From Oscillospiraceae bacterium (GTDB lineage: Bacteria; Bacillota; Clostridia; Oscillospirales; WRJC01): a stretch of DNA of 64,000 bases. Under the pieces are notes generated by a model. That model worked only from the letters and a program-made list of their open reading frames with translations, was not told the DNA's origin and did not search any database. The position numbers and the translations under genes are program-made. Positions within the stretch are counted from its first letter, which is position 1, and each line of letters starts with the position of its first letter. Positions 1 through 38,850 of the stretch are shown here, in pieces. Location of the stretch: positions 28,505 to 92,504 of the forward strand of contig WRMA01000001.1 in assembly GCA_009777355.1 (NCBI GenBank). The letters run 5' to 3'.

Positions 1-495
1 TTTCTGCGGGACTATATTTCGCCGAACGGGTTCGGATACGGAATACTTGCCGCAAGTCTCGTTTTATCGGTTATGGTTCTGCCGACCATCGTCAGCGTAA
101 GTTTCGACGCGCTTAACGCCGTGCCCAAAAGTTATTACGAGGGAGCTCTCGCTCTCGGAGCGACGAGCGAACAGAGCGTTTTTAAAGTTATGCTGCCCGC
201 CGCGAAGAGCGGCATACTCGCGGCCGTCGTTCTGGCGATCGGGCGGGCAATCGGCGAGACGATGGCCGTCATAATGGTTCTCGGCAACTCGCCGGTTATG
301 CCCAAAGGCTTATTTCAGTCGGTAAGGACAATGACGTCTAACATCGCGCTCGGAGCGACGGAATTATCCGGAGACGCGGCGACCGCGCTCGTTTCTACGG
401 GAGTCGTACTGTTCGCGTTTACTTTACTGTTGAATATCAGCTTTTCGTTATTGAAAGAACAAGGGGGAGGTAAGCGTGAGAAAAAACGCCCATAA
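1..495 (+). CDS. pstC: Phosphate ABC transporter permease PstC, 5'-truncated by the window edge
   Basis: Frame 1 is open from base 1. The C-terminal permease sequence (EAA-loop-like GRAIGETMAV) is followed by pstA and pstB. Confidence 0.85.
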   Translation, partial: FLRDYISPNGFGYGILAASLVLSVMVLPTIVSVSFDALNAVPKSYYEGALALGATSEQSVFKVMLPAAKSGILAAVVLAIGRAIGETMAVIMVLGNSPVMPKGLFQSVRTMTSNIALGATELSGDAATALVSTGVVLFAFTLLLNISFSLLKEQGGGKREKKRP

Positions 496-1330
496 AAGAC
501 AGATTCTTAAATTCGCTTTTTTTAAATACATATCGCGGGGAGCTCTTTTAATCAGTCTCGCCGCCCTTTCGTCGGTCGTTATATTTATTCTTCTCCGGGG
601 AATCCCGTATATTAATATGCATTTGATATTCGGCGATTTTACTTCGAAAAATCCGTCAATCAAACCCGCTCTCATAGGAACGTTTTACTTGATTTTGATT
701 TCCGTCGGAATCGCCGCGCCGGTCGGCATAGGCAGCGCGATTTTTTTAACGGAGTACACGAACTCGAAAAGCCGGCTTATTCGCATTGTCCGGGTCGCGA
801 CTGAGACCCTGGCGGGGATTCCGTCGATTGTTTACGGCTTGTTCGGCTATCTTATTTTTGTCGTCGCCCTTGGTCTGGGATATTCGCTGATTGGCGGCGG
901 CGTTACTCTCTCGATTATGATTTTACCCGTAATCGTCCGTTCGACCGAAGAAAATCTGCTTGCGGTGCCGGCGTCGCTGCGCGAGGGGAGCTTCGCGCTC
1001 GGCAGTTCGAAAGTACGGACGATTTTTTCGGTTATTCTGCCGTGCGCCGCCAGCGGAATCGTCACGTCCTTGATTTTAGCCGTCGGGCGGGTAATATCAG
1101 AATCCGCGGTGTTAATTCTAACTATCGGAATGGTGGTTGACAGGGCGCCGGATAATTTAATCTCGCCGGGAACGAGCCTCGCTCTCGACGTTTATTATTT
1201 CGGCTCTCACGGATATCCCGAACAGGCGGCGGCGACCGCCGTCGTTCTTCTTGTTTTAGTCATGGCAATCAATATTACGGCGACTGTCCTGGGTAAAATT
1301 TTCGGAAAGGGGGAACTTGCGAATGGATAA
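476..1330 (+). CDS. pstA: Phosphate ABC transporter permease PstA
   Basis: 284-aa multi-TM permease that overlaps the pstC stop and the pstB start. Context is pstB-phoU. Confidence 0.9.
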
Positions 1331-2084
1331 TAAATTTAATATAACGGTTAAGAACTGCGATTTATATTACGGCGATTTTCAGGCGCTGAAAAATATAAAT
1401 ATAGATATAGACGAACGCGAGGTGACCGCGTTTATCGGACCTTCGGGCTGCGGTAAATCGACTTTTATCAAAACTTTCAACAGAATGAACGATTTAATAG
1501 AGGACTGCAGAATTACGGGCGAAATAAAAATCGGGGGAGAGAATATTTACGCAAAGGGTACGGACGTGACTTTGCTGCGCAAAAATATCGGCATGGTGTT
1601 CCAGAAACCCAACCCGTTTCCCATGAGTATATATGACAACGTCGCGTTCGCGCCCCGGACTTTCGGAATAAAAAAGAAAACCGAACTTGACGCAATCGTC
1701 GAGCGTTCGCTTAAACAGGCTGGATTATGGGGAGAAGTAAAAGACAGACTGCGTAAAAACGCGATGGGCCTATCCGGAGGTCAGCAGCAGAGACTCTGCA
1801 TAGCGAGGGCTCTCGCGGCCGAACCGAAAATATTGTTGATGGACGAGCCCACAAGCGCGCTCGACCCGATTTCAACGGGTAAAATCGAGGAGTTAATCAA
1901 CGAACTGAAAGTCGATTACACAATCGTGATCGTAACGCACAATATGCAGCAGGCGACGAGAATATCGGATAAAACGGCGTTTTTTCTCCTGGGCGAGATT
2001 ATAGAGTACGCAAAAACGGGGGAATTGTTCTCGAATCCGAAAGATAAACGCGCGGAAAATTATATAACCGGACGTTTCGGATAA
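1317..2084 (+). CDS. pstB: Phosphate import ATP-binding protein PstB
   Basis: Walker [10 protein letters not shown], signature LSGGQQQRL, Walker B LLMDEP. The length is typical of PstB. Confidence 0.95.
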
Positions 2085-10425: not shown

Positions 10426-10562
10426 CCTTTCTTAAATTTTTAAATTTAAATAAATATATAAAAACCGCGCAAATAATCCCGATTCAATCGCGCGGTTCGC
10501 ATACGTTAAGAACAGCGGAGCCGGCTTTTTTTTTCAAAAAAAGCGGCTGTCCAAAACATAAT

Positions 10563-10650
10563 CTTCCCTACGTTGGCATTACCCATATCAGGTTATAAGG
10601 GACAGCGGATTTTTACTTAAATCCGCATCTCAGCCCTGCGGCGCCCCCGA
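10563..10650 (-). promoter_or_regulatory. TPP (THI-box) riboswitch
   Basis: The minus strand reads GGGGCGCCGCAGGGCUGAGAUGCGG...CCGCUGUCCCUUAUAACCUGAUAUGGGUAAUGCCAACGUAGGGAAG. It contains the CUGAGA and ACCUGAU..GGNUAAUGCC..CGUAGGGAA cores. Confidence 0.9.
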
Positions 10651-10696
10651 CTATTTAATTGCGGTTATTATTTTTTATGAGTTTCAGCAAAGTTTC

Positions 10697-10847: not shown

Positions 10848-10876
10848 ATTATAGCAGTATATTACTCTTATGTCAA
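10848..10876 (-). promoter_or_regulatory. Consensus promoter TTGACA-N17-TATAAT firing toward the remnant, TPP riboswitch and thiT
   Basis: -35 at 10871-10876 and -10 at 10848-10853, read on the minus strand. Confidence 0.6.
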
Positions 10877-10916: not shown

Positions 10917-10945
10917 TTGACAATAATAAACAATCGTGATATAAT
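10917..10945 (+). promoter_or_regulatory. Consensus promoter TTGACA-N17-TATAAT for candidate antisense RNA (copy L)
   Basis: -35 at 10917-10922 and -10 at 10940-10945. Confidence 0.6.
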
Positions 10946-23026: not shown

Positions 23027-23068
23027 GATTTATATATCTCCTTGATTTTTTTATATTTTAAGTTTCTA

Positions 23069-23097
23069 TTGACAAACATGAATATACGTGTTATAAT
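23069..23097 (+). promoter_or_regulatory. Consensus promoter TTGACA-N17-TATAAT antisense to the ruvA 5' region
   Basis: -35 at 23069-23074 and -10 at 23092-23097. Confidence 0.6.
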
Positions 23098-23103
23098 TAT
23101 AAT

Positions 23104-23220
23104 ATAATAAATGAAGAAGTTAAGGTAAACAGCAGAGATAATCAGTCCAGACTGCCGGGTGGACCGTTTTTCGGTTCTTGCGATGAAGGGGTGACTGTCC
23201 TTCTGCCTTAACTTCTTTTT
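23104..23220 (+). ncRNA. Candidate ~115-nt structured RNA closed by a 12-bp helix AAGAAGUUAAGG/CCUUAACUUCUU plus a U-run
   Basis: The promoter, closing helix (23114-23125 with 23206-23217), T7 tract and internal hairpins were all read directly. I recognise no known RNA class. Confidence 0.45.
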
Positions 23221-23513
23221 TTCATTCTTTTGAGATTATTGTCGTTAATTTTCATCAAATGCACTATTTCAAAGCAGTTTTTAAGTTCAGACATTTCGAC
23301 CAGCGCCAATGAATTATCTCTGTCATTTATTTTGGCGACTAAATTAATATAATTATTTTTAAGACCGGGAAAATATGAGGGATTATTATATAACGACTGT
23401 CCGAGTAAATAATTATATTCTTTTTTGTCAATTTCGGGGTGTCTCGATAAATTCCGGTCAATAATACTCTTTTTCAGCAGCACCGGCTTGCTTGATTTCC
23501 CTAGTTTATCCAA
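23208..23513 (-). CDS. 101-aa ORF (TTG start) resembling the C-terminal nuclease-like (PBECR-type) module of phage/ICE polyvalent proteins; possibly a truncated remnant
   Basis: The pattern LG..KPVLLKKSII.RN..RHPEI...NP......LVAK....N.LALVE....FEIVH matches by recall only. The frame is open upstream to 23640 with no start. Confidence 0.4.
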   Translation of the reverse strand: MDKLGKSSKPVLLKKSIIDRNLSRHPEIDKKEYNYLLGQSLYNNPSYFPGLKNNYINLVAKINDRDNSLALVEMSELKNCFEIVHLMKINDNNLKRMKKRS

Positions 23514-23640
23514 ATCTTCTTTATTCAGTTCGGGCAGTATATTATCGCGGTCAAAGTCGATACGTATATTATCGGCTTTTTTCTGTTTTTCAGCTTCTGA
23601 CGTTATTTCTGATATATTATCACTTTCTTCCTTGATTTTT

Positions 23641-24147
23641 TTATATTTTCGCGTTTAATATATTAAACAGAGAATTTGTCGATTTCGAGTGCGCGTGGCA
23701 TATACCAATCGCCAAAGCGTCCGCCGCGTCGTCCGGTTTGGGCATTTTTTCAAGATTCAATATATTCTTCACCATTGTCTGAACCTGGATTTTATCCGCT
23801 CTGCCGTAACCCACTACAGACTGTTTTACTTGCAGCGGCGTATACTCGCCTATATCGAGCCTGTTCTGATACGCGCACAGCAAAACGACTCCTCTCGCCT
23901 CGCATACTGAAATAATAGTCTTCTGATTCGTGTTATAAAATAATTCTTCTATTGCGAGGTCGTCGGGTTTATACATATCTATTAAATTTTTGATTTCGTC
24001 GTATATCGTTTTAAGACGTTCATGCACGGGGGTTTTCGGGGGGGTTATTATTACCCCGTAATTAATCGTCGTGAATTTATTTCTCTCAAATTTTAATACG
24101 CCGTAACCGACCGTCGCGAGTCCGGGGTCTATTCCCAAAATAATCAC
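23641..24147 (-). CDS. ruvC: Crossover junction endodeoxyribonuclease RuvC
   Basis: GTG start. ILGIDPGLATVGYG, then DAADALAIGICH at the C-terminus. Confidence 0.9.
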   Translation of the reverse strand: MIILGIDPGLATVGYGVLKFERNKFTTINYGVIITPPKTPVHERLKTIYDEIKNLIDMYKPDDLAIEELFYNTNQKTIISVCEARGVVLLCAYQNRLDIGEYTPLQVKQSVVGYGRADKIQVQTMVKNILNLEKMPKPDDAADALAIGICHAHSKSTNSLFNILNAKI

Positions 24148-24189: not shown

Positions 24190-24218
24190 ATTATAGCATA
24201 TTTTTGTTCCCCTGTCAA
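24190..24218 (-). promoter_or_regulatory. Consensus promoter TTGACA-N17-TATAAT for ruvC
   Basis: Hexamers read on the minus strand, ~40 nt upstream of the ruvC start. Confidence 0.6.
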
Positions 24219-24267: not shown

Positions 24268-24296
24268 TTGACAAATTAAATTGACCGTGATATAAT
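24268..24296 (+). promoter_or_regulatory. Consensus promoter TTGACA-N17-TATAAT for the TetR/ABC operon
   Basis: Hexamers read directly. Confidence 0.6.
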
Positions 24297-24357: not shown

Positions 24358-25011
24358 GTGATTTTATTGATTGGGCGGTTTGATTTATTTTACTCGCTCG
24401 AACCCGAAAAGCAGAAACAGATTATAGATTCGGCAATGACGGAGTTCGGCGAAAAAGGTTTCAGGCGGGCTTCGACTAACGCAATCGTCGAAAACGCGGG
24501 CATAAGCAAGGGCATATTGTTTTATTACTTCGGCAGCAAAGAAGAACTCTTTGATTTTTTGTGCGAATATACGCTCGAATTTTGGAAAGCTGAATACGCG
24601 CATAATTTTTCTTCAAAAAAATCCGGCGATTTTCTCGAACGCTGCAAGATTTTATCTGAATTTAAACGCAGGGCCATAACGGAGTTTCCCGTAATAATAA
24701 GATTTTTCGAGTGTATTTATCTTCCGGAAAACGAGGAGCGCATGAAAAAACATCAGGAAGCCGCGGCCGGGCTTCGCGAAGATATCAGAAGAAATCTCTA
24801 CGACGATATAGATTATTCTCTGTTTCGGGACGATATTGACCCTCAAAATATTATAAAATACACAAAATGGCTGATGGACAGTTACGAAGCTTCCGTTATG
24901 CAGAAAGTAAAAAGCGAGAATTTAAAGTACGACATGAAGAATTTCGACGAAGAATGGAAGAATTTCTATGATTTAATGGACGATTTGAGAAAAATATTCT
25001 ATAAAAATTAA
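24358..25011 (+). CDS. TetR/AcrR family transcriptional regulator
   Basis: N-terminal HTH FRRASTNAIVENAGISKGILFYYFGSKEELF. The start could be TTG at 24367. Confidence 0.85.
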   Translation: MILLIGRFDLFYSLEPEKQKQIIDSAMTEFGEKGFRRASTNAIVENAGISKGILFYYFGSKEELFDFLCEYTLEFWKAEYAHNFSSKKSGDFLERCKILSEFKRRAITEFPVIIRFFECIYLPENEERMKKHQEAAAGLREDIRRNLYDDIDYSLFRDDIDPQNIIKYTKWLMDSYEASVMQKVKSENLKYDMKNFDEEWKNFYDLMDDLRKIFYKN

Positions 25012-29525: not shown

Positions 29526-29568
29526 TATCAAGTCAAACGCCGCCCTTTAGCGATAGAGCGGGGGATTT

Positions 29569-29598
29569 TTAAGGGGAATCGCGGCCAATTCCCCTTAA
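29569..29598. repeat. Palindrome TTAAGGGGAAT-N8-ATTCCCCTTAA
   Basis: 11-bp arms, downstream of iscU. Confidence 0.7.
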
Positions 29599-29610
29599 AT
29601 TTCTTTTTTG

Positions 29611-38774: not shown

Positions 38775-38850
38775 TGGTGCCTCCGGTCGGAATTGAACCA
38801 ACGACACGGGGATTTTCAGTCCCCTGCTCTACCAACTGAGCTACAGAGGC
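38775..38850 (-). tRNA. tRNA-Phe (anticodon GAA), CCA encoded
   Basis: The minus strand reads GCCTCTGTAGCTCAGTTGGTAGAGCAGGGGACTGAAAATCCCCGTGTCGTTGGTTCAATTCCGACCGGAGGCACCA. The cloverleaf was checked by hand. Confidence 0.95.

What the first reader, a model, noticed from the sequence alone, without database searches (positions are those of the whole stretch)
23069..23220. Promoter- and terminator-bounded structured RNA antisense to the ORF101-ruvA junction
- A perfect TTGACA-N17-TATAAT promoter (23069-23097) lies on the strand opposite the ruv operon.
- It is followed by ~115 nt whose ends form a 12-bp helix (AAGAAGUUAAGG at 23114-23125 with CCUUAACUUCUU at 23206-23217), then a run of seven T.
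- Inside are further helices: CAGA/UCUG, GUCCA-N10-UGGAC and GGACCG-UUUUU-CGGUUC.
- The 3' helix overlaps the last codons and the stop of the 101-aa ORF. The body of the RNA is antisense to the ruvA 5' untranslated region.
- The only internal ATG opens a 5-codon frame without an RBS.
- I can't assign it to any known RNA family.
- Possible roles are an antitoxin-like antisense RNA for ORF101, or an antisense regulator or attenuator of ruvAB expression.
Basis: partly seen in the sequence, partly recalled or inferred. Interest (0 to 1): 0.55.

Follow-up and report, generated by a model that had tools for sequence, protein, structure and literature searches.

The report
Structured RNA partner of phage RNase domain
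The flagged RNA gene is real, but it has no connection to ruvAB: it belongs to an uncatalogued, widespread class of about 100-nt structured RNAs that always sit tail-to-tail with a predicted RNase domain (LPD13) of phage portal proteins, most likely as that RNase's RNA inhibitor, and here the RNA-plus-RNase cassette was inserted between ruvC and ruvA.

Summary
**Observation.** Confirmed. There is a perfect extended-minus-10 promoter, a closing helix and a U-tract.

**Locus.**
- "ORF101" is really a 143-codon LPD13 frame (Pfam PF18825). Its ATG has become ATA.
- A 590-bp LPD13+RNA cassette, flanked by a 21-nt duplication, interrupts a ruvC-ruvA junction that is intact in relatives.

**The RNA class.**
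- The same RNA lies convergent to LPD13 genes, 0-15 nt from their last codon, in Oscillospiraceae, Christensenellaceae, Proteobacteria, Mucispirillum and Brachyspira MAGs and in viral contigs. There are 63 distinct sequences.
- In those phage contigs LPD13 is the C-terminal domain of the portal protein.
- Covariation supports a four-way junction (P1-P4) plus a loop-loop pseudoknot: 90% of pair cells are paired, against 38-55% in slid controls.
- No Rfam family reaches threshold. The closest is the orphan "skipping-rope" motif, with weak reciprocal matches.

**The protein.** LPD13 folds like BECR/RelE RNases (BrnT, MuF-C).

**Interpretation.**
- Best reading (inferred): an RNA immunity or antitoxin factor for the LPD13 RNase.
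- Supporting genetics: orphan RNAs, decayed LPD13 genes that keep the RNA, tandem RNA arrays, and joint swapping of the RNase core with the RNA.
- The ruvAB-regulator idea is rejected.
- Simple antisense control is unlikely.

The parts
23069..23097 (+). Sigma-70 promoter of the RNA gene: TTGACA (23069-23074), 17-nt spacer with TG at 23089-23090, TATAAT (23092-23097)
   Evidence: A promoter with at least 9/12 matches lies upstream of 23 of 32 distinct homologous RNAs.
23104..23223 (+). Predicted RNA transcript. The start at about 23104 is inferred from the -10 position. The covariance-model match spans 23114-23221.
   Evidence: 91.5 bits, E 4.6e-22
23114..23127 (+). P1 5' arm (AAGAAGUUAAGGUA)
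   Evidence: All 14 pairs show double changes across homologues; 93% of cells are paired.
23204..23217 (+). P1 3' arm (UGCCUUAACUUCUU). Overlaps the stop and last codons of the LPD13 frame.
23130..23135 (+). P2 5' arm (CAGCAG). It is followed by the conserved A-rich loop start, AGAUAAU here and AGAAAAU in most homologues.
   Evidence: GCAG/CUGC becomes GCUG/CAGC in L011.
23152..23157 (+). P2 3' arm (CUGCCG, nearly invariant)
23143..23147 (+). Pseudoknot / kissing-loop 5' half (CAGUC), located in the P2 loop
   Evidence: Strong covariation, e.g. GC12/UA9/AU6 and CG18/UA6/AU2/GC2. Replicated in the metagenome set.
23193..23197 (+). Pseudoknot / kissing-loop 3' half (GACUG), located in the P4 loop
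23161..23177 (+). P3 hairpin (GGACCG-UUUUU-CGGUUC). Its sequence is hypervariable between homologues.
23180..23190 (+). Conserved J3/4 'CGAUG' (its last G starts P4) plus the P4 5' arm (GAAGGG, 23185-23190)
   Evidence: GAAGG/CCUUC, GGAGG/CCUCC and GAGGG/CCCUC variants are all seen.
23198..23203 (+). P4 3' arm (UCCUUC). It abuts the P1 3' arm with no linker.
23216..23222 (+). U-tract (7 T). On the other strand it is the A-run encoding the C-terminal lysines of LPD13.
   Evidence: A T-run of at least 4 follows P1 in 29 of 32 homologues.
23208..23639 (-). LPD13 (PF18825) reading frame, open for 143 codons. The homologous start codon is ATA (23606-23604) instead of ATG. All invariant residues are retained. 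The first-stage 'ORF101' (TTG at 23513) is a truncated call.
23039..23059 (.). Direct repeat, copy 1 (TCCTTGATTTTTTTATATTTT): the duplicated ruvC-stop / ruvA-RBS junction
23629..23649 (.). Direct repeat, copy 2 (identical; contains the ruvC stop codon)
23060..23628 (.). The inserted LPD13 + RNA cassette. Together with one repeat copy it measures 590 bp.
   Evidence: The ends match the limits of homology with the cassettes in L001, L017 and L019.

Best explanation
The RNA at about 23104-23223 (+) is a member of a previously uncatalogued, widely distributed class of about 90-130-nt structured small RNAs.

**Architecture.**
- A long closing helix (P1) that also serves as the terminator stem.
- Three hairpins (P2, P3, P4) around a four-way junction.
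- A 5-6-bp Watson-Crick interaction between the P2 and P4 loops.
- Near-invariant single-stranded motifs: GAAC, AGA(A/G)AAU, CUGCCG and CGAUG.

**Partner.** The RNA is the dedicated genetic partner of LPD13.
- LPD13 is a 130-aa domain with a BECR/RelE-like RNase fold.
- In phages it forms the C-terminus of the portal protein.
- It also occurs as a promoter-less stand-alone ORF inserted into host operons.

**Most likely mechanism (inferred, not shown).**
- The RNA is made constitutively from its own consensus promoter.
- It binds and neutralises the cognate LPD13 RNase. It would be an RNA immunity factor or antitoxin that acts on the protein (type III-like), not by antisense pairing.
- This would protect the phage-producing cell and the lysogen, or the host of a stand-alone cassette.

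**In this window.**
- A 590-bp LPD13+RNA cassette was inserted between the ruvC stop codon and the ruvA ribosome-binding site of an Oscillospiraceae genome.
- The insertion duplicated 21 nt.
- The LPD13 start codon has since decayed (ATG to ATA), while the RNA gene and its promoter remain intact.

**How sure.** The stated confidence (0.5) is for the whole statement, including the inhibitory mechanism. That the RNA is a conserved structured RNA, that it is the partner of LPD13, and that it sits here through an insertion, I hold at about 0.9.
For: **Shown: the RNA is real and conserved.**
- The covariance model R1 scores the window RNA at 91.5 bits.
- It finds 34 + 58 matches in the fetched genome, viral and metagenome loci, giving 63 distinct sequences.

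**Shown: the structure.**
- 90.0% and 90.6% of pair cells are paired in two data sets. Controls with partners slid by 1-3 columns give 38-55%.
- 24-25 of 32 pairs have compensatory changes on both sides, and 0 of 500 shuffles reach the observed values. The pseudoknot pairs covary too.
- P3 is present in 26 of 30 homologues with hypervariable sequence.

**Shown: linkage to LPD13.**
- Every full LPD13 locus from the genome scan carries the RNA convergently.
- All 12 true RNA matches in IMG/VR lie beside a BECR-domain ORF, while the 20 chance pattern matches do not.
- The RNA 3' end lies 0-15 nt from the last LPD13 codon in 28 of 34 and 35 of 58 matches.

**Shown: the nature of LPD13.**
- Pfam LPD13, E = 5e-14.
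- AlphaFold2 model with pLDDT 90.7.
- Foldseek hits to BrnT (probability 0.98, TMt 0.62), HP0892, HigB2 and YoeB/ParE, and to MuF-C-terminal and polyvalent proteins (probability 1.0, TMq 0.5-0.58).
- Sub-threshold Pfam PBECR2 hits.
- An invariant His67 after a helix, preceded by Lys56/57, and EIVH on the last strand. This fits the colicin-like BECR active-site layout described in bioRxiv 10.64898/2026.08.28.747851.
- Portal fusions, and the order TerL, portal::LPD13, RNA, MuF, capsid in L021.

**Genetics that fit an immunity/antitoxin role (inference).**
- The 590-bp cassette has no room for a protein antitoxin.
- Orphan RNAs lie among ordinary chromosomal genes: L068, L070, L074, L084, L091.
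- LPD13 has decayed to 40-73-aa fragments, or lost its start codon, while the RNA stays intact.
- Co-transcribed arrays of 2-3 RNA units occur in L040 and L043.
- In the tandem cassettes of L017, the N-terminal part of LPD13 (93% identical) and the promoter (93%) are kept, but the RNase core (38%) and the RNA body were exchanged together.
- RNA divergence tracks the RNase core (Mantel r = 0.48, p = 2e-4) more closely than the N-terminal part (r = 0.21).
- The same RNA class also accompanies a PBECR1-domain ORF in L035/L077.

**The insertion.**
- A 21-nt perfect direct repeat with 590-nt spacing.
- The window minus the cassette aligns colinearly with the intact ruvC-34 nt-ruvA junction of relatives.
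Against: - No experiment or expression data are available. Transcription, RNA-protein binding, RNase activity and toxicity are all inferred.
- LPD13 has never been shown to be an RNase or to be toxic. Its Pfam PBECR hits are below threshold and its PDB fold matches are modest (TMq 0.36 for BrnT).
- Iyer et al. 2017 (PMC5512222) treated phage PBECR effectors as weapons against the host that need no immunity factor, and listed LPD13 as uncharacterised.
- The RNA core is better conserved (70-80% identical) than the protein core (30-40%). That fits mimicry of, or action on, a universal cellular component at least as well as cognate-specific inhibition.
- A tight genetic pair is equally expected if the RNA is a cofactor, substrate or cargo of LPD13.
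- Known type III antitoxins are tandem short repeats co-oriented with the toxin gene. This RNA is usually single and convergent.
- How the cassette moves is unexplained. Only the window copy has a long flanking repeat.
Confidence: 0.5

Rival explanations
1. The RNA is a cofactor, substrate or cargo of LPD13 rather than its inhibitor. Under this view LPD13 is an RNA-binding or RNA-processing domain that forms a ribonucleoprotein with the RNA. In phages, for example, the RNA would be loaded on the portal's C-terminal domain and delivered with the DNA, or it would direct or activate the nuclease.
For: - There is strict genetic pairing and a fixed tail-to-tail geometry.
- The RNA core is more conserved than the protein.
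- The junction and loop nucleotides are invariant, as in RNAs with a defined binding partner.
- Iyer et al. proposed RNA-binding roles for inactive PBECR domains in MuF.
- Weinberg et al. judged the related skipping-rope motif likely to have a 'sophisticated biochemical function'.
Against: - Orphan RNAs without any LPD13 nearby, and RNAs retained next to decayed LPD13 genes, are hard to explain if the RNA works only with the protein.
- The RNA has a constitutive promoter independent of the late operon.
- LPD13 keeps catalytic-type His, Lys and Glu residues.
Confidence: 0.2
2. The RNA is a type I-like antisense regulator. Pairing across the convergent 3' overlap would destabilise or terminate the LPD13 (or portal) mRNA, as in txpA/RatA or bsrG/SR4 of Bacillus subtilis (from established knowledge of those systems).
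For: - The genes are arranged convergently, and the RNA 3' end overlaps the stop region in most loci.
- The P1 helix flanked by A- and U-tracts could act as a bidirectional terminator.
Against: - The overlap is only 0-16 nt, and it is absent in several loci (L043, L060; the promoter-proximal units in L040 and L099).
- Selection acts on a covarying four-way junction and pseudoknot that lie outside the overlap.
- The protein is a 130-aa soluble domain, not a small membrane peptide.
- Orphan RNAs exist with nothing to pair with.
Confidence: 0.1
3. The RNA is an independent phage or host small RNA, such as a decoy against a host defence or a regulator of another target. Its linkage to LPD13 would be positional only, through hitch-hiking in the same mobile module.
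For: - Orphan copies occur.
- The RNA core is very highly conserved across phyla.
- The class also occurs next to a different BECR family, PBECR1.
Against: - The 0-15 nt abutment to the LPD13 stop is kept across at least five phyla and across very different contexts.
- The RNase core and the RNA are swapped together in L017.
- All partners belong to one fold class, BECR.
Confidence: 0.1
4. The RNA is a packaging RNA like phi29 pRNA. The complementary P2 and P4 loops would pair between molecules to build a ring docked on the portal through LPD13.
For: - LPD13 is fused to portal proteins.
- Two loops have covarying 5-6-nt complementarity.
Against: - Stand-alone cassettes and orphan RNAs occur in chromosomes without any portal.
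- These phages carry ordinary TerL terminases.
- There is no Rfam pRNA match.
- The loop-loop pairing can equally form within one molecule.
Confidence: 0.04
5. This is the first reader's alternative: an antisense regulator or attenuator of ruvA/ruvB expression.
For: - The RNA lies in the spacer upstream of ruvA on the opposite strand.
- The insertion may well have polar effects on ruvAB.
Against: - The RNA travels with LPD13, not with ruv. Identical or similar RNAs sit in unrelated operons and in phage head modules.
- Relatives with intact ruvC-ruvA junctions lack it.
- One relative carries an unrelated gene at the same junction, and another carries a 211-nt spacer.
Confidence: 0.02

Closest known systems
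skipping-rope RNA motif (Rfam RF02924; Weinberg et al. 2017, PMC5737381)
   Same: **Same order of elements.**
- A closing helix, a short A-rich junction, then hairpin 1 whose loop starts with AAA.
- Hairpin 2, then a junction ending in GAU followed by G.
- A G-rich/C-rich hairpin 3 that abuts the closing helix, then a 3' terminator.

**Weak but reciprocal matches, co-extensive and on the same strand.**
- The L004 RNA scores 15.4 bits against RF02924.
- My model R1 aligns a bona fide skipping-rope RNA (L009 860-938, 53.8 bits) over its full length at 13.5 bits, E = 0.0017 in a 241-nt search.

**Similar genomic company.**
- That bona fide skipping-rope RNA lies 12 nt from a PBECR-like ORF carrying the same HPRDxDGKF linker.
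- The motif is described as terminator-ended, not self-cleaving, and tied to a nearby protein gene in either orientation. Its function is unknown.
   Different: - The score is far below the Rfam gathering score of 36.7. The window RNA gives no hit at all at E <= 10, and none of more than 13 homologues in 144 kb reaches any family threshold.
- The conserved sequences differ (GAAC.GCAGA, CUGCCG).
- P1 is longer, at 12-14 bp, and doubles as the terminator stem.
- A 5-6-bp loop-loop pseudoknot is prominent here.
- The protein partner is LPD13.
- The orientation is fixed: convergent, abutting the stop codon.
Type III toxin-antitoxin systems (ToxIN, CptIN, TenpIN)
   Same: - An RNase-type protein is genetically paired with a structured, pseudoknotted RNA and no protein antitoxin.
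- The RNA has stronger, independent expression.
- Multi-unit RNA arrays occur in some loci.
- The modules are associated with phages and mobile elements.
   Different: - The toxin fold is BECR/RelE-like, not ToxN/AbiQ-like.
- The RNA is a single unit of about 100 nt, not 2-5 short (34-36 nt) tandem repeats.
- The genes are convergent, not an RNA followed by a terminator and then the toxin gene on one strand.
- Binding, processing and toxicity are untested.
Polymorphic-toxin / MuF-toxin plus immunity modules of temperate phages, and PBECR effectors (Iyer et al. 2017, PMC5512222)
   Same: - A C-terminal BECR RNase domain sits on a virion protein (portal or MuF) behind a conserved linker.
- It is followed immediately by a small dedicated gene.
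- The toxin core and its downstream partner are exchanged together between conserved flanks (L017).
- Orphan 'immunity' copies occur.
   Different: The downstream partner is an RNA, not a protein. No RNA immunity factor is described for such systems in the literature I could search.
Type I TA pairs with 3' overlap (txpA/RatA, bsrG/SR4)
   Same: The transcripts are convergent and overlap at their 3' ends. The RNA has its own strong promoter.
   Different: - The overlap is only 0-16 nt.
- The protein is a soluble RNase-fold domain, not a hydrophobic peptide.
- What is conserved in the RNA is its structure, not the region of complementarity.

Membership tests
skipping-rope RNA (RF02924) | Score at or above Rfam's gathering threshold (36.7 bits) | tested here: not met
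   - The window RNA gives no hit at E <= 10.
- The L004 homologue scores 15.4 bits.
- There is no gathering-threshold (GA) hit on 33 loci that carry the RNA.
skipping-rope RNA (RF02924) | Multistem junction closed by a long helix, with conserved junction nucleotides (..GAU|G before the last hairpin) and a 3' intrinsic terminator | tested here: inconclusive
   The element order is the same, and the weak matches are reciprocal and co-extensive. That is resemblance, not proof of homology.
skipping-rope RNA (RF02924) | Association with one specific nearby protein domain | tested here: inconclusive
   One bona fide skipping-rope RNA lies next to a PBECR-like ORF. The original supplement that names the domain is not held.
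Type III toxin-antitoxin | Antitoxin is an array of short tandem RNA repeats upstream of, and co-oriented with, the toxin gene | tested here: not met
   - There are no tandem repeats at the locus.
- The RNA is a single unit and is convergent.
- Arrays of 2-3 full units occur only in some loci.
Type III toxin-antitoxin | Toxin of the ToxN/AbiQ endoribonuclease fold | tested here: not met
   The fold matches are to BECR/RelE-type proteins: BrnT, HigB2 and MuF-C.
Type III toxin-antitoxin | RNA binds and inhibits the protein toxin directly | not testable with these tools
   This needs co-expression and binding assays.
Type I toxin-antitoxin (3'-overlap class) | Small hydrophobic toxin peptide, and extended antisense complementarity | tested here: not met
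   The protein is a 130-aa soluble alpha/beta domain. The overlap is 0-16 nt.
LPD13 (Pfam PF18825), for the ORF | Score above Pfam's gathering threshold (27 bits) | tested here: met
   The window frame scores 52.7 bits, E = 5.3e-14, covering 121 of 139 profile positions. All 23 aligned homologues match.
BECR / PBECR RNase superfamily, for the ORF | BECR fold (helices followed by a 4-stranded antiparallel sheet) with a conserved His before or after the core helix and a second His on the last strand | tested here: inconclusive
   - The fold and the residue layout fit.
- Pfam PBECR2/3 hits are sub-threshold.
- Catalysis is untested.
phi29-type pRNA (RF00044) | Rfam match; phi29-like phage with protein-primed DNA; intermolecular loop-loop pairing | tested here: not met
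   - There is no Rfam hit.
- The phage contexts have TerL, portal and MuF head modules.
- Whether the loop pairing is inter- or intramolecular cannot be tested here.
tRNA / tmRNA | Recognised by ARAGORN or the Rfam tRNA model | tested here: not met
   Only the topology recalls a cloverleaf: four arms, with the first and third hairpin loops touching.

The most novel reading that the evidence does not exclude
These RNAs, and by extension the orphan skipping-rope motif, are RNA immunity factors for virion-delivered BECR RNase effectors of phages.

Under this reading they form a new class of protein-targeting RNA antitoxins built as a cloverleaf-like four-way junction. They would protect the producer cell and the lysogen, and would exclude superinfecting relatives.

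They would also spread through bacterial chromosomes as 0.6-kb promoter-less toxin / constitutive-RNA cassettes, or as orphan immunity RNAs.
Probability: 0.35. Interest if true: 0.85.

Novelty: new variant of a known kind. Interest (0 to 1): 0.78.

Why it matters
- **An orphan RNA class gets a partner.** This RNA class is highly structured, found in several phyla and absent from Rfam. The work gives it a defined protein partner and a testable function. It probably does the same for the nine-year-old orphan skipping-rope motif.
- **An unknown domain gets a fold.** LPD13, listed since 2017 as a domain of unknown function, is reassigned to the BECR RNase fold. It is shown to be a recurrent C-terminal appendage of phage portal proteins.
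- **If the RNA inhibits the RNase, three things follow.**
  - It would be the first RNA immunity factor for a virion-borne or polymorphic-type toxin.
  - It would define a new family of protein-targeting RNA antitoxins with a RelE-like toxin.
  - It would account for very small (0.6 kb) selfish cassettes that use host operons for toxin expression.
- **Practical use.** The covariance model allows this RNA to be annotated in gut and prophage genomes, where the locus is currently called a short hypothetical ORF.

Tried and rejected
1. **Rfam.** A whole-window gathering scan and permissive local scans found only a tRNA and a TPP riboswitch elsewhere, plus noise at the locus (mir-4742, IS009). Later sub-threshold hits to RT-12 and others were dismissed as chance.
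2. **Defence and annotation libraries for the ORF.** PADLOC, NCBIfam and PHROGs gave nothing.
3. **Solved structures.** A PDB sequence-profile search gave nothing meaningful. The CorA hits in Foldseek are long-helix artefacts (rmsd 13 Å).
5. **Cultured collections.** tblastn with two LPD13 variants found no match in INPHARED phages or PLSDB plasmids.
6. **Transposon-like ends.** Only the window copy has a long flanking repeat. 19 other stand-alone cassettes have repeats of at most 12 nt, which is chance level; the long repeats flanking the two L017 units reflect their tandem duplication.
7. **Empty site by exact RuvA look-up.** This returned only the same insertion. The empty site came from 75%-identical relatives instead.
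8. **First IMG/VR DNA pattern.** It was too loose: 20 of 32 hits were chance matches inside coding DNA. Adding the GAAC anchor fixed this: 48 of 49 stretches gave a covariance-model match.
CAGA/UCUG and GUCCA/UGGAC were tested on the alignment and rejected.
10. **Other RNA types.** tRNA-like and tandem-repeat (ToxI-like) readings were rejected.
11. **Literature.** Searches for LPD13, PBECR plus RNA, RNA antitoxin plus portal, type III plus BECR, and DUF3800 gave no description of this pair. One 2026 preprint on ncRNA-protein co-evolution could not be opened.
12. **PBECR1 versus LPD13.** A profile comparison of the L035 PBECR1 protein with LPD13 showed no sequence relationship. The RNA therefore pairs with two distinct BECR families.
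Full report
**1. What is at the coordinates**

The + strand carries TTGACA-N17-TATAAT at 23069-23097, with a TG two bases before the -10 hexamer. The window holds 12 such perfect sites against none in 100 shuffles. Consensus promoters are therefore this organism's normal idiom.

About 7 nt downstream of the -10 hexamer begins a stretch whose ends pair: 23114-23127 with 23204-23217. A run of seven T follows at 23216-23222.

The + strand folds to -39.9 kcal/mol (z = -3.5; 0 of 200 shuffles fold as well). The complement reaches only -31.7 kcal/mol.

No Rfam family matches, even at E <= 10. ARAGORN and Tandem Repeats Finder find nothing.

**2. The neighbouring ORF is not a 101-aa orphan**

- On the - strand the frame is open for 143 codons (23208-23639).
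- It matches Pfam LPD13 (PF18825) with E = 5e-14 over residues 23-142.
- Homologues of 130-200 aa start at an ATG that aligns with an ATA codon in the window (23606-23604).
- The only canonical in-frame starts lie downstream. The gene has therefore most likely lost its start, although every invariant residue is intact.

**3. The locus is an insertion**

- A perfect 21-nt direct repeat (23039-23059 and 23629-23649) brackets a 590-bp unit.
- The repeat comprises the last codons and stop of ruvC plus the ruvA ribosome-binding site.
- Removing the unit and one repeat copy gives a junction that aligns colinearly with the uninterrupted ruvC-34 nt-ruvA junction of related Oscillospiraceae.
- At the same junction one relative has an aminoglycoside/choline-kinase-like gene. 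Another has a 211-nt spacer with terminal inverted repeats. The site is therefore a hot spot.
- None of these relatives has the RNA.

**4. The RNA travels with LPD13**

A 76%-identical LPD13 gene in a different operon (L001, after a racemase gene) has the same promoter and RNA, convergent, with a compensatory change in the P3 stem.

*Genome scan.* An LPD13 profile scan of one genome per species returned 15 loci. They come from Oscillospiraceae, Christensenellaceae, Proteobacteria/Rickettsiales-labelled MAGs, Zoogloeaceae, Mucispirillum, Brachyspira and Muribaculaceae. Every locus with a terminal LPD13 has a recognisable RNA just past the stop codon.

*Viral contigs.* A DNA pattern taken from the conserved core found 32 places in IMG/VR.
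- The 12 that have the full RNA anatomy all lie next to a BECR-domain ORF.
- The 20 others are chance matches in coding DNA.

*Metagenomes.* A tighter pattern found 49 metagenome stretches, and 48 of them gave covariance-model matches (58 matches in all).

*Geometry.* The RNA 3' end lies 0-15 nt from the last LPD13 codon in 28 of 34 and 35 of 58 matches. The RNA's U-tract is the complement of the A-run that encodes the lysine-rich C-terminus of LPD13.

**5. Structure of the RNA**

A model built from 15 sequences scores the window RNA at 91.5 bits. In all, 63 distinct sequences were collected.

On the two model-guided alignments:
- 90.0% and 90.6% of pair cells form standard pairs. With partners slid by 1-3 columns the figure is 38-55%.
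- 24 and 25 of 32 pairs have changes on both sides.
- None of 500 shuffles reaches the observed values.

These alignments were fitted to the model, which favours the structure. However, the pairing was already visible in a plain MAFFT alignment.

| Element | Window coordinates | Note |
|---|---|---|
| P1 | 23114-23127 / 23204-23217 | Closing helix; doubles as terminator stem |
| P2 | 23130-23135 / 23152-23157 | Loop starts with the conserved A-rich segment |
| P3 | 23161-23166 / 23172-23177 | Hypervariable sequence; present in 26 of 30 |
| P4 | 23185-23190 / 23198-23203 | Abuts the P1 3' arm with no linker |
| Loop-loop pairing | 23143-23147 / 23193-23197 | Pairs the P2 loop with the P4 loop |

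The loop-loop pairs covary strongly, for example GC12/UA9/AU6 and CG32/GC5/AU4/UA2.

The consensus is ...uGAACnGCAGAaAAuCngccncGnCUGCCG-[P3]-CGAUGnnGgg...ggcnGUCCnnCC... followed by Un.

A conserved G.U closing pair in P4 would be an A.C mismatch on the other strand, which fixes the functional strand.

**6. Expression signals are conserved**

- 23 of 32 distinct RNAs have a sigma-70 match of at least 9/12 within 60 nt upstream, and many score 11-12/12.
- 29 of 32 end in a T-run of at least four.
- Units without a promoter are the second or third units of co-oriented arrays (L040 has 2, L043 has 3).

**7. What LPD13 is**

*Fold.*
- The AlphaFold2 model is confident (pLDDT 90.7). It shows helices followed by a four-stranded sheet and a C-terminal helix.
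- The only compact Foldseek matches in the PDB are RelE/BECR-type RNase toxins: BrnT (probability 0.98), HP0892, HigB2, YoeB/ParE and Cami1.
- Matches among viral models are MuF-C-terminal-domain, minor-capsid and polyvalent proteins (probability 1.0, TMq 0.5-0.58).
- Portal-fused members give sub-threshold Pfam PBECR2 hits.

*Residues.* The invariant residues are K56, N63, H67, Y84 and E124, plus EIVH on the last strand. They fit the colicin-like BECR active-site layout described in a 2026 preprint.

*Architecture.* In many loci LPD13 is the C-terminal domain of a 590-720-aa phage portal protein (Phage_portal or Phage_portal_3). It sits behind a linker of the type E(S/E)xHPRDxxGKF or GNxxHxGRPGxxGGS. 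In L021 the gene order is TerL, portal::LPD13, RNA (convergent), MuF, DUF2213, cement protein, major capsid protein.

*Prior literature.* Iyer et al. 2017 described PBECR domains fused to MuF and portal proteins as injected RNase effectors, but left LPD13 uncharacterised.

*Family size.* The family has 631 clusters at 50% identity. I found none in cultured-phage or plasmid collections.

**8. Clues to function (all inference)**

- **(a) No protein antitoxin.** The 590-bp cassette contains nothing but the LPD13 frame and the RNA gene, so there is no room for one.
- **(b) Expression asymmetry.** Stand-alone LPD13 ORFs have no promoter. They sit immediately after the stop codon of a host gene, co-oriented, in some cases with overlapping stop and start codons. 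The RNA has a consensus promoter.
- **(c) Orphan RNAs.** They occur among ordinary genes: YkuD, an HtrA-like protease, an ABC transporter and a copper amine oxidase-domain protein.
- **(d) Decay of the protein gene only.** Several RNAs sit next to LPD13 remnants of 40-73 aa. The window copy has lost its start codon but keeps a perfect promoter and a top-scoring RNA.
- **(e) Joint module exchange.** In the tandem cassettes of L017 about 150 nt of the 5' coding region are identical. Overall the N-terminal part is 93% identical in protein and the RNA promoter is 93% identical. The RNase core (38% identical) and the RNA body differ, so they were exchanged as one module.
- **(f) Co-divergence.** Across 24 pairs, RNA divergence correlates with divergence of the RNase core (Mantel r = 0.48, p = 2e-4) more than with the N-terminal part (r = 0.21). 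Shared ancestry contributes to both correlations.
- **(g) A second BECR partner.** The same RNA class also sits convergent to a PBECR1-domain ORF (L035/L077).

This is the genetic grammar of toxin-immunity and toxin-antitoxin modules, with an RNA in the place of the immunity protein.

**9. Proposed mechanism**

The RNA is made constitutively and binds the LPD13 RNase. It probably presents one of its invariant single-stranded segments to the His/Lys site, and so keeps the enzyme inactive.
- In phages this would spare the producer cell's translation until the portal-borne domain is enclosed in the capsid. It would also make lysogens immune to the effector of incoming relatives.
- In chromosomes the cassette behaves as an addictive or protective module. 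The RNA can outlive the toxin gene, as seems to have happened here.

Shown: identity, structure, linkage, fold and insertion. Inferred: transcription, binding, inhibition, toxicity and injection.

**10. Rivals**

- **Cofactor, substrate or cargo.** This fits the tight pairing and the unusually high conservation of the RNA core (70-80% identical when the protein core is 30-40%). It does not explain orphan RNAs or decayed partners.
- **Antisense control through the 3' overlap.** This is unlikely: the overlap is 0-16 nt and sometimes absent, the conserved features lie outside it, and portal-fused LPD13 has no start site of its own.
- **pRNA-like ring on the portal.** The covarying loop complementarity does not exclude it, but stand-alone and orphan copies do not fit.
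- **ruvAB regulator.** Refuted as a dedicated role by the comparative data.

**11. Closest known**

The nearest family is the skipping-rope motif (RF02924). [quoted passage not shown] 2017. The paper reports that it does not self-cleave, that it is associated with a nearby protein gene in either orientation, and that its function is unknown.

- The L004 homologue aligns to it co-extensively, with the same order of elements, at 15.4 bits against a threshold of 36.7.
- My model aligns a bona fide skipping-rope RNA over its full length at 13.5 bits (E = 0.0017 in 241 nt).
- That skipping-rope RNA lies 12 nt downstream of an ORF with the same HPRDxDGKF linker and sub-threshold PBECR3/MuF_C/PBECR2 matches. 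It sits in the same prophage-like region as an LPD13+RNA pair.

I therefore regard the LPD13-associated RNA as a sister class of skipping-rope, not a member.

**12. Verdict**

- The finding opens onto an uncatalogued RNA class with a defined protein partner and a testable mechanism.
- I found no description of this pair in the searchable literature. One possibly relevant 2026 preprint could not be read.

Noticed in passing
window 23096-23129 (- strand): Promoter-like sites face ruvA: TTAACT-16-TATAAT (23123 to 23096, 10/12) and a second at 23129 to 23101. They use the palindromic TTATAATTATAA that also holds the RNA's -10 hexamer. They could restore ruvAB transcription downstream of the inserted cassette. 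This feature is not obviously conserved in L001.
   Followed up: partly
L103 484-1461; L104/L105 1290-1500; L106 1466-1501: The ruvC-ruvA spacer is an insertion hot spot in related Oscillospiraceae. One relative has an APH/choline-kinase-like gene there. Another has a 211-nt spacer bounded by inverted repeats of about 17-18 nt (CTAAATAACCAGTTAAAA / TTTTACTGGTTATTTAG), which looks MITE-like. Others have an intact 34-nt spacer.
   Followed up: partly
L009 860-938 (+) and ORF 186-848 (+): A bona fide skipping-rope RNA (53.8 bits) lies 12 nt downstream of an ORF. That ORF has an HPRDGDGKF linker and sub-threshold PBECR3/MuF_C/PBECR2 matches. The pair sits about 1.8 kb from an LPD13+RNA pair, with Bro-N and S24-peptidase genes in between. 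This suggests that skipping-rope RNAs also partner phage BECR domains.
   Followed up: partly
L035 907-1002 with ORF 1190-1804 (-); also L077, L090, L095: The same RNA class lies convergent to a PBECR1-domain ORF, about 190 nt from its stop, rather than to LPD13. In L095 the similar ORF appears frameshifted. The content of the 190-nt gap was not examined.
   Followed up: partly
L043 313-702 (same as L080); L040 3859-4078 (same as L099, L073): Arrays of three (L043) or two (L040) divergent RNA units are co-oriented behind a single promoter. The array ends next to the LPD13 stop codon. One unit (L043 313-450) carries a large insertion in the P2 loop.
   Followed up: partly
L017 879-1993 (same as L062, L018); L023/L093: Two LPD13+RNA cassettes lie in tandem. 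The 5' coding parts and the RNA promoters are near-identical, but the RNase cores and RNA bodies are divergent. This is module swapping typical of toxin-immunity loci.
   Followed up: yes
L003, L004, L005, L011, L013, L021, L040 and P0008-P0016: Recurrent linker motifs sit just upstream of LPD13 and of other BECR domains: E(S/E)xHPRDxxGKF and GNxGHxGRPGxxGGS. They may be processing or attachment signals of virion-borne effectors.
   Followed up: no
window 10547-10658 (-); 38778-38850 (-): A TPP riboswitch (66.7 bits) and a tRNA (anticodon loop reads CUGAAAA, presumably Phe-GAA; not checked with ARAGORN). These are the only Rfam gathering-level hits in the window.
   Followed up: no
window, 12 sites (e.g. 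10848-10876 -, 10917-10945 +, 24190-24218 -, 24268-24296 +): There are twelve perfect TTGACA-N17-TATAAT promoters in 64 kb (0 expected). Most have a TG or GTG before the -10 hexamer. Several form divergent pairs, for example between ruvC and the TetR-like gene at 24358.
   Followed up: no
window 29563-29608 (+): A weak second match to the RNA model (13.6 bits, E = 0.43, only 46 nt). It is probably noise.
   Followed up: no
L014 1-5463: An 1821-aa polyvalent protein (Muribaculaceae MAG) has an internal LPD13 domain. The RNA model gave no match at E <= 0.1 anywhere in the 6.3-kb locus, which includes about 0.8 kb beyond the ORF's 3' end. A more divergent partner RNA was not looked for.
   Followed up: no
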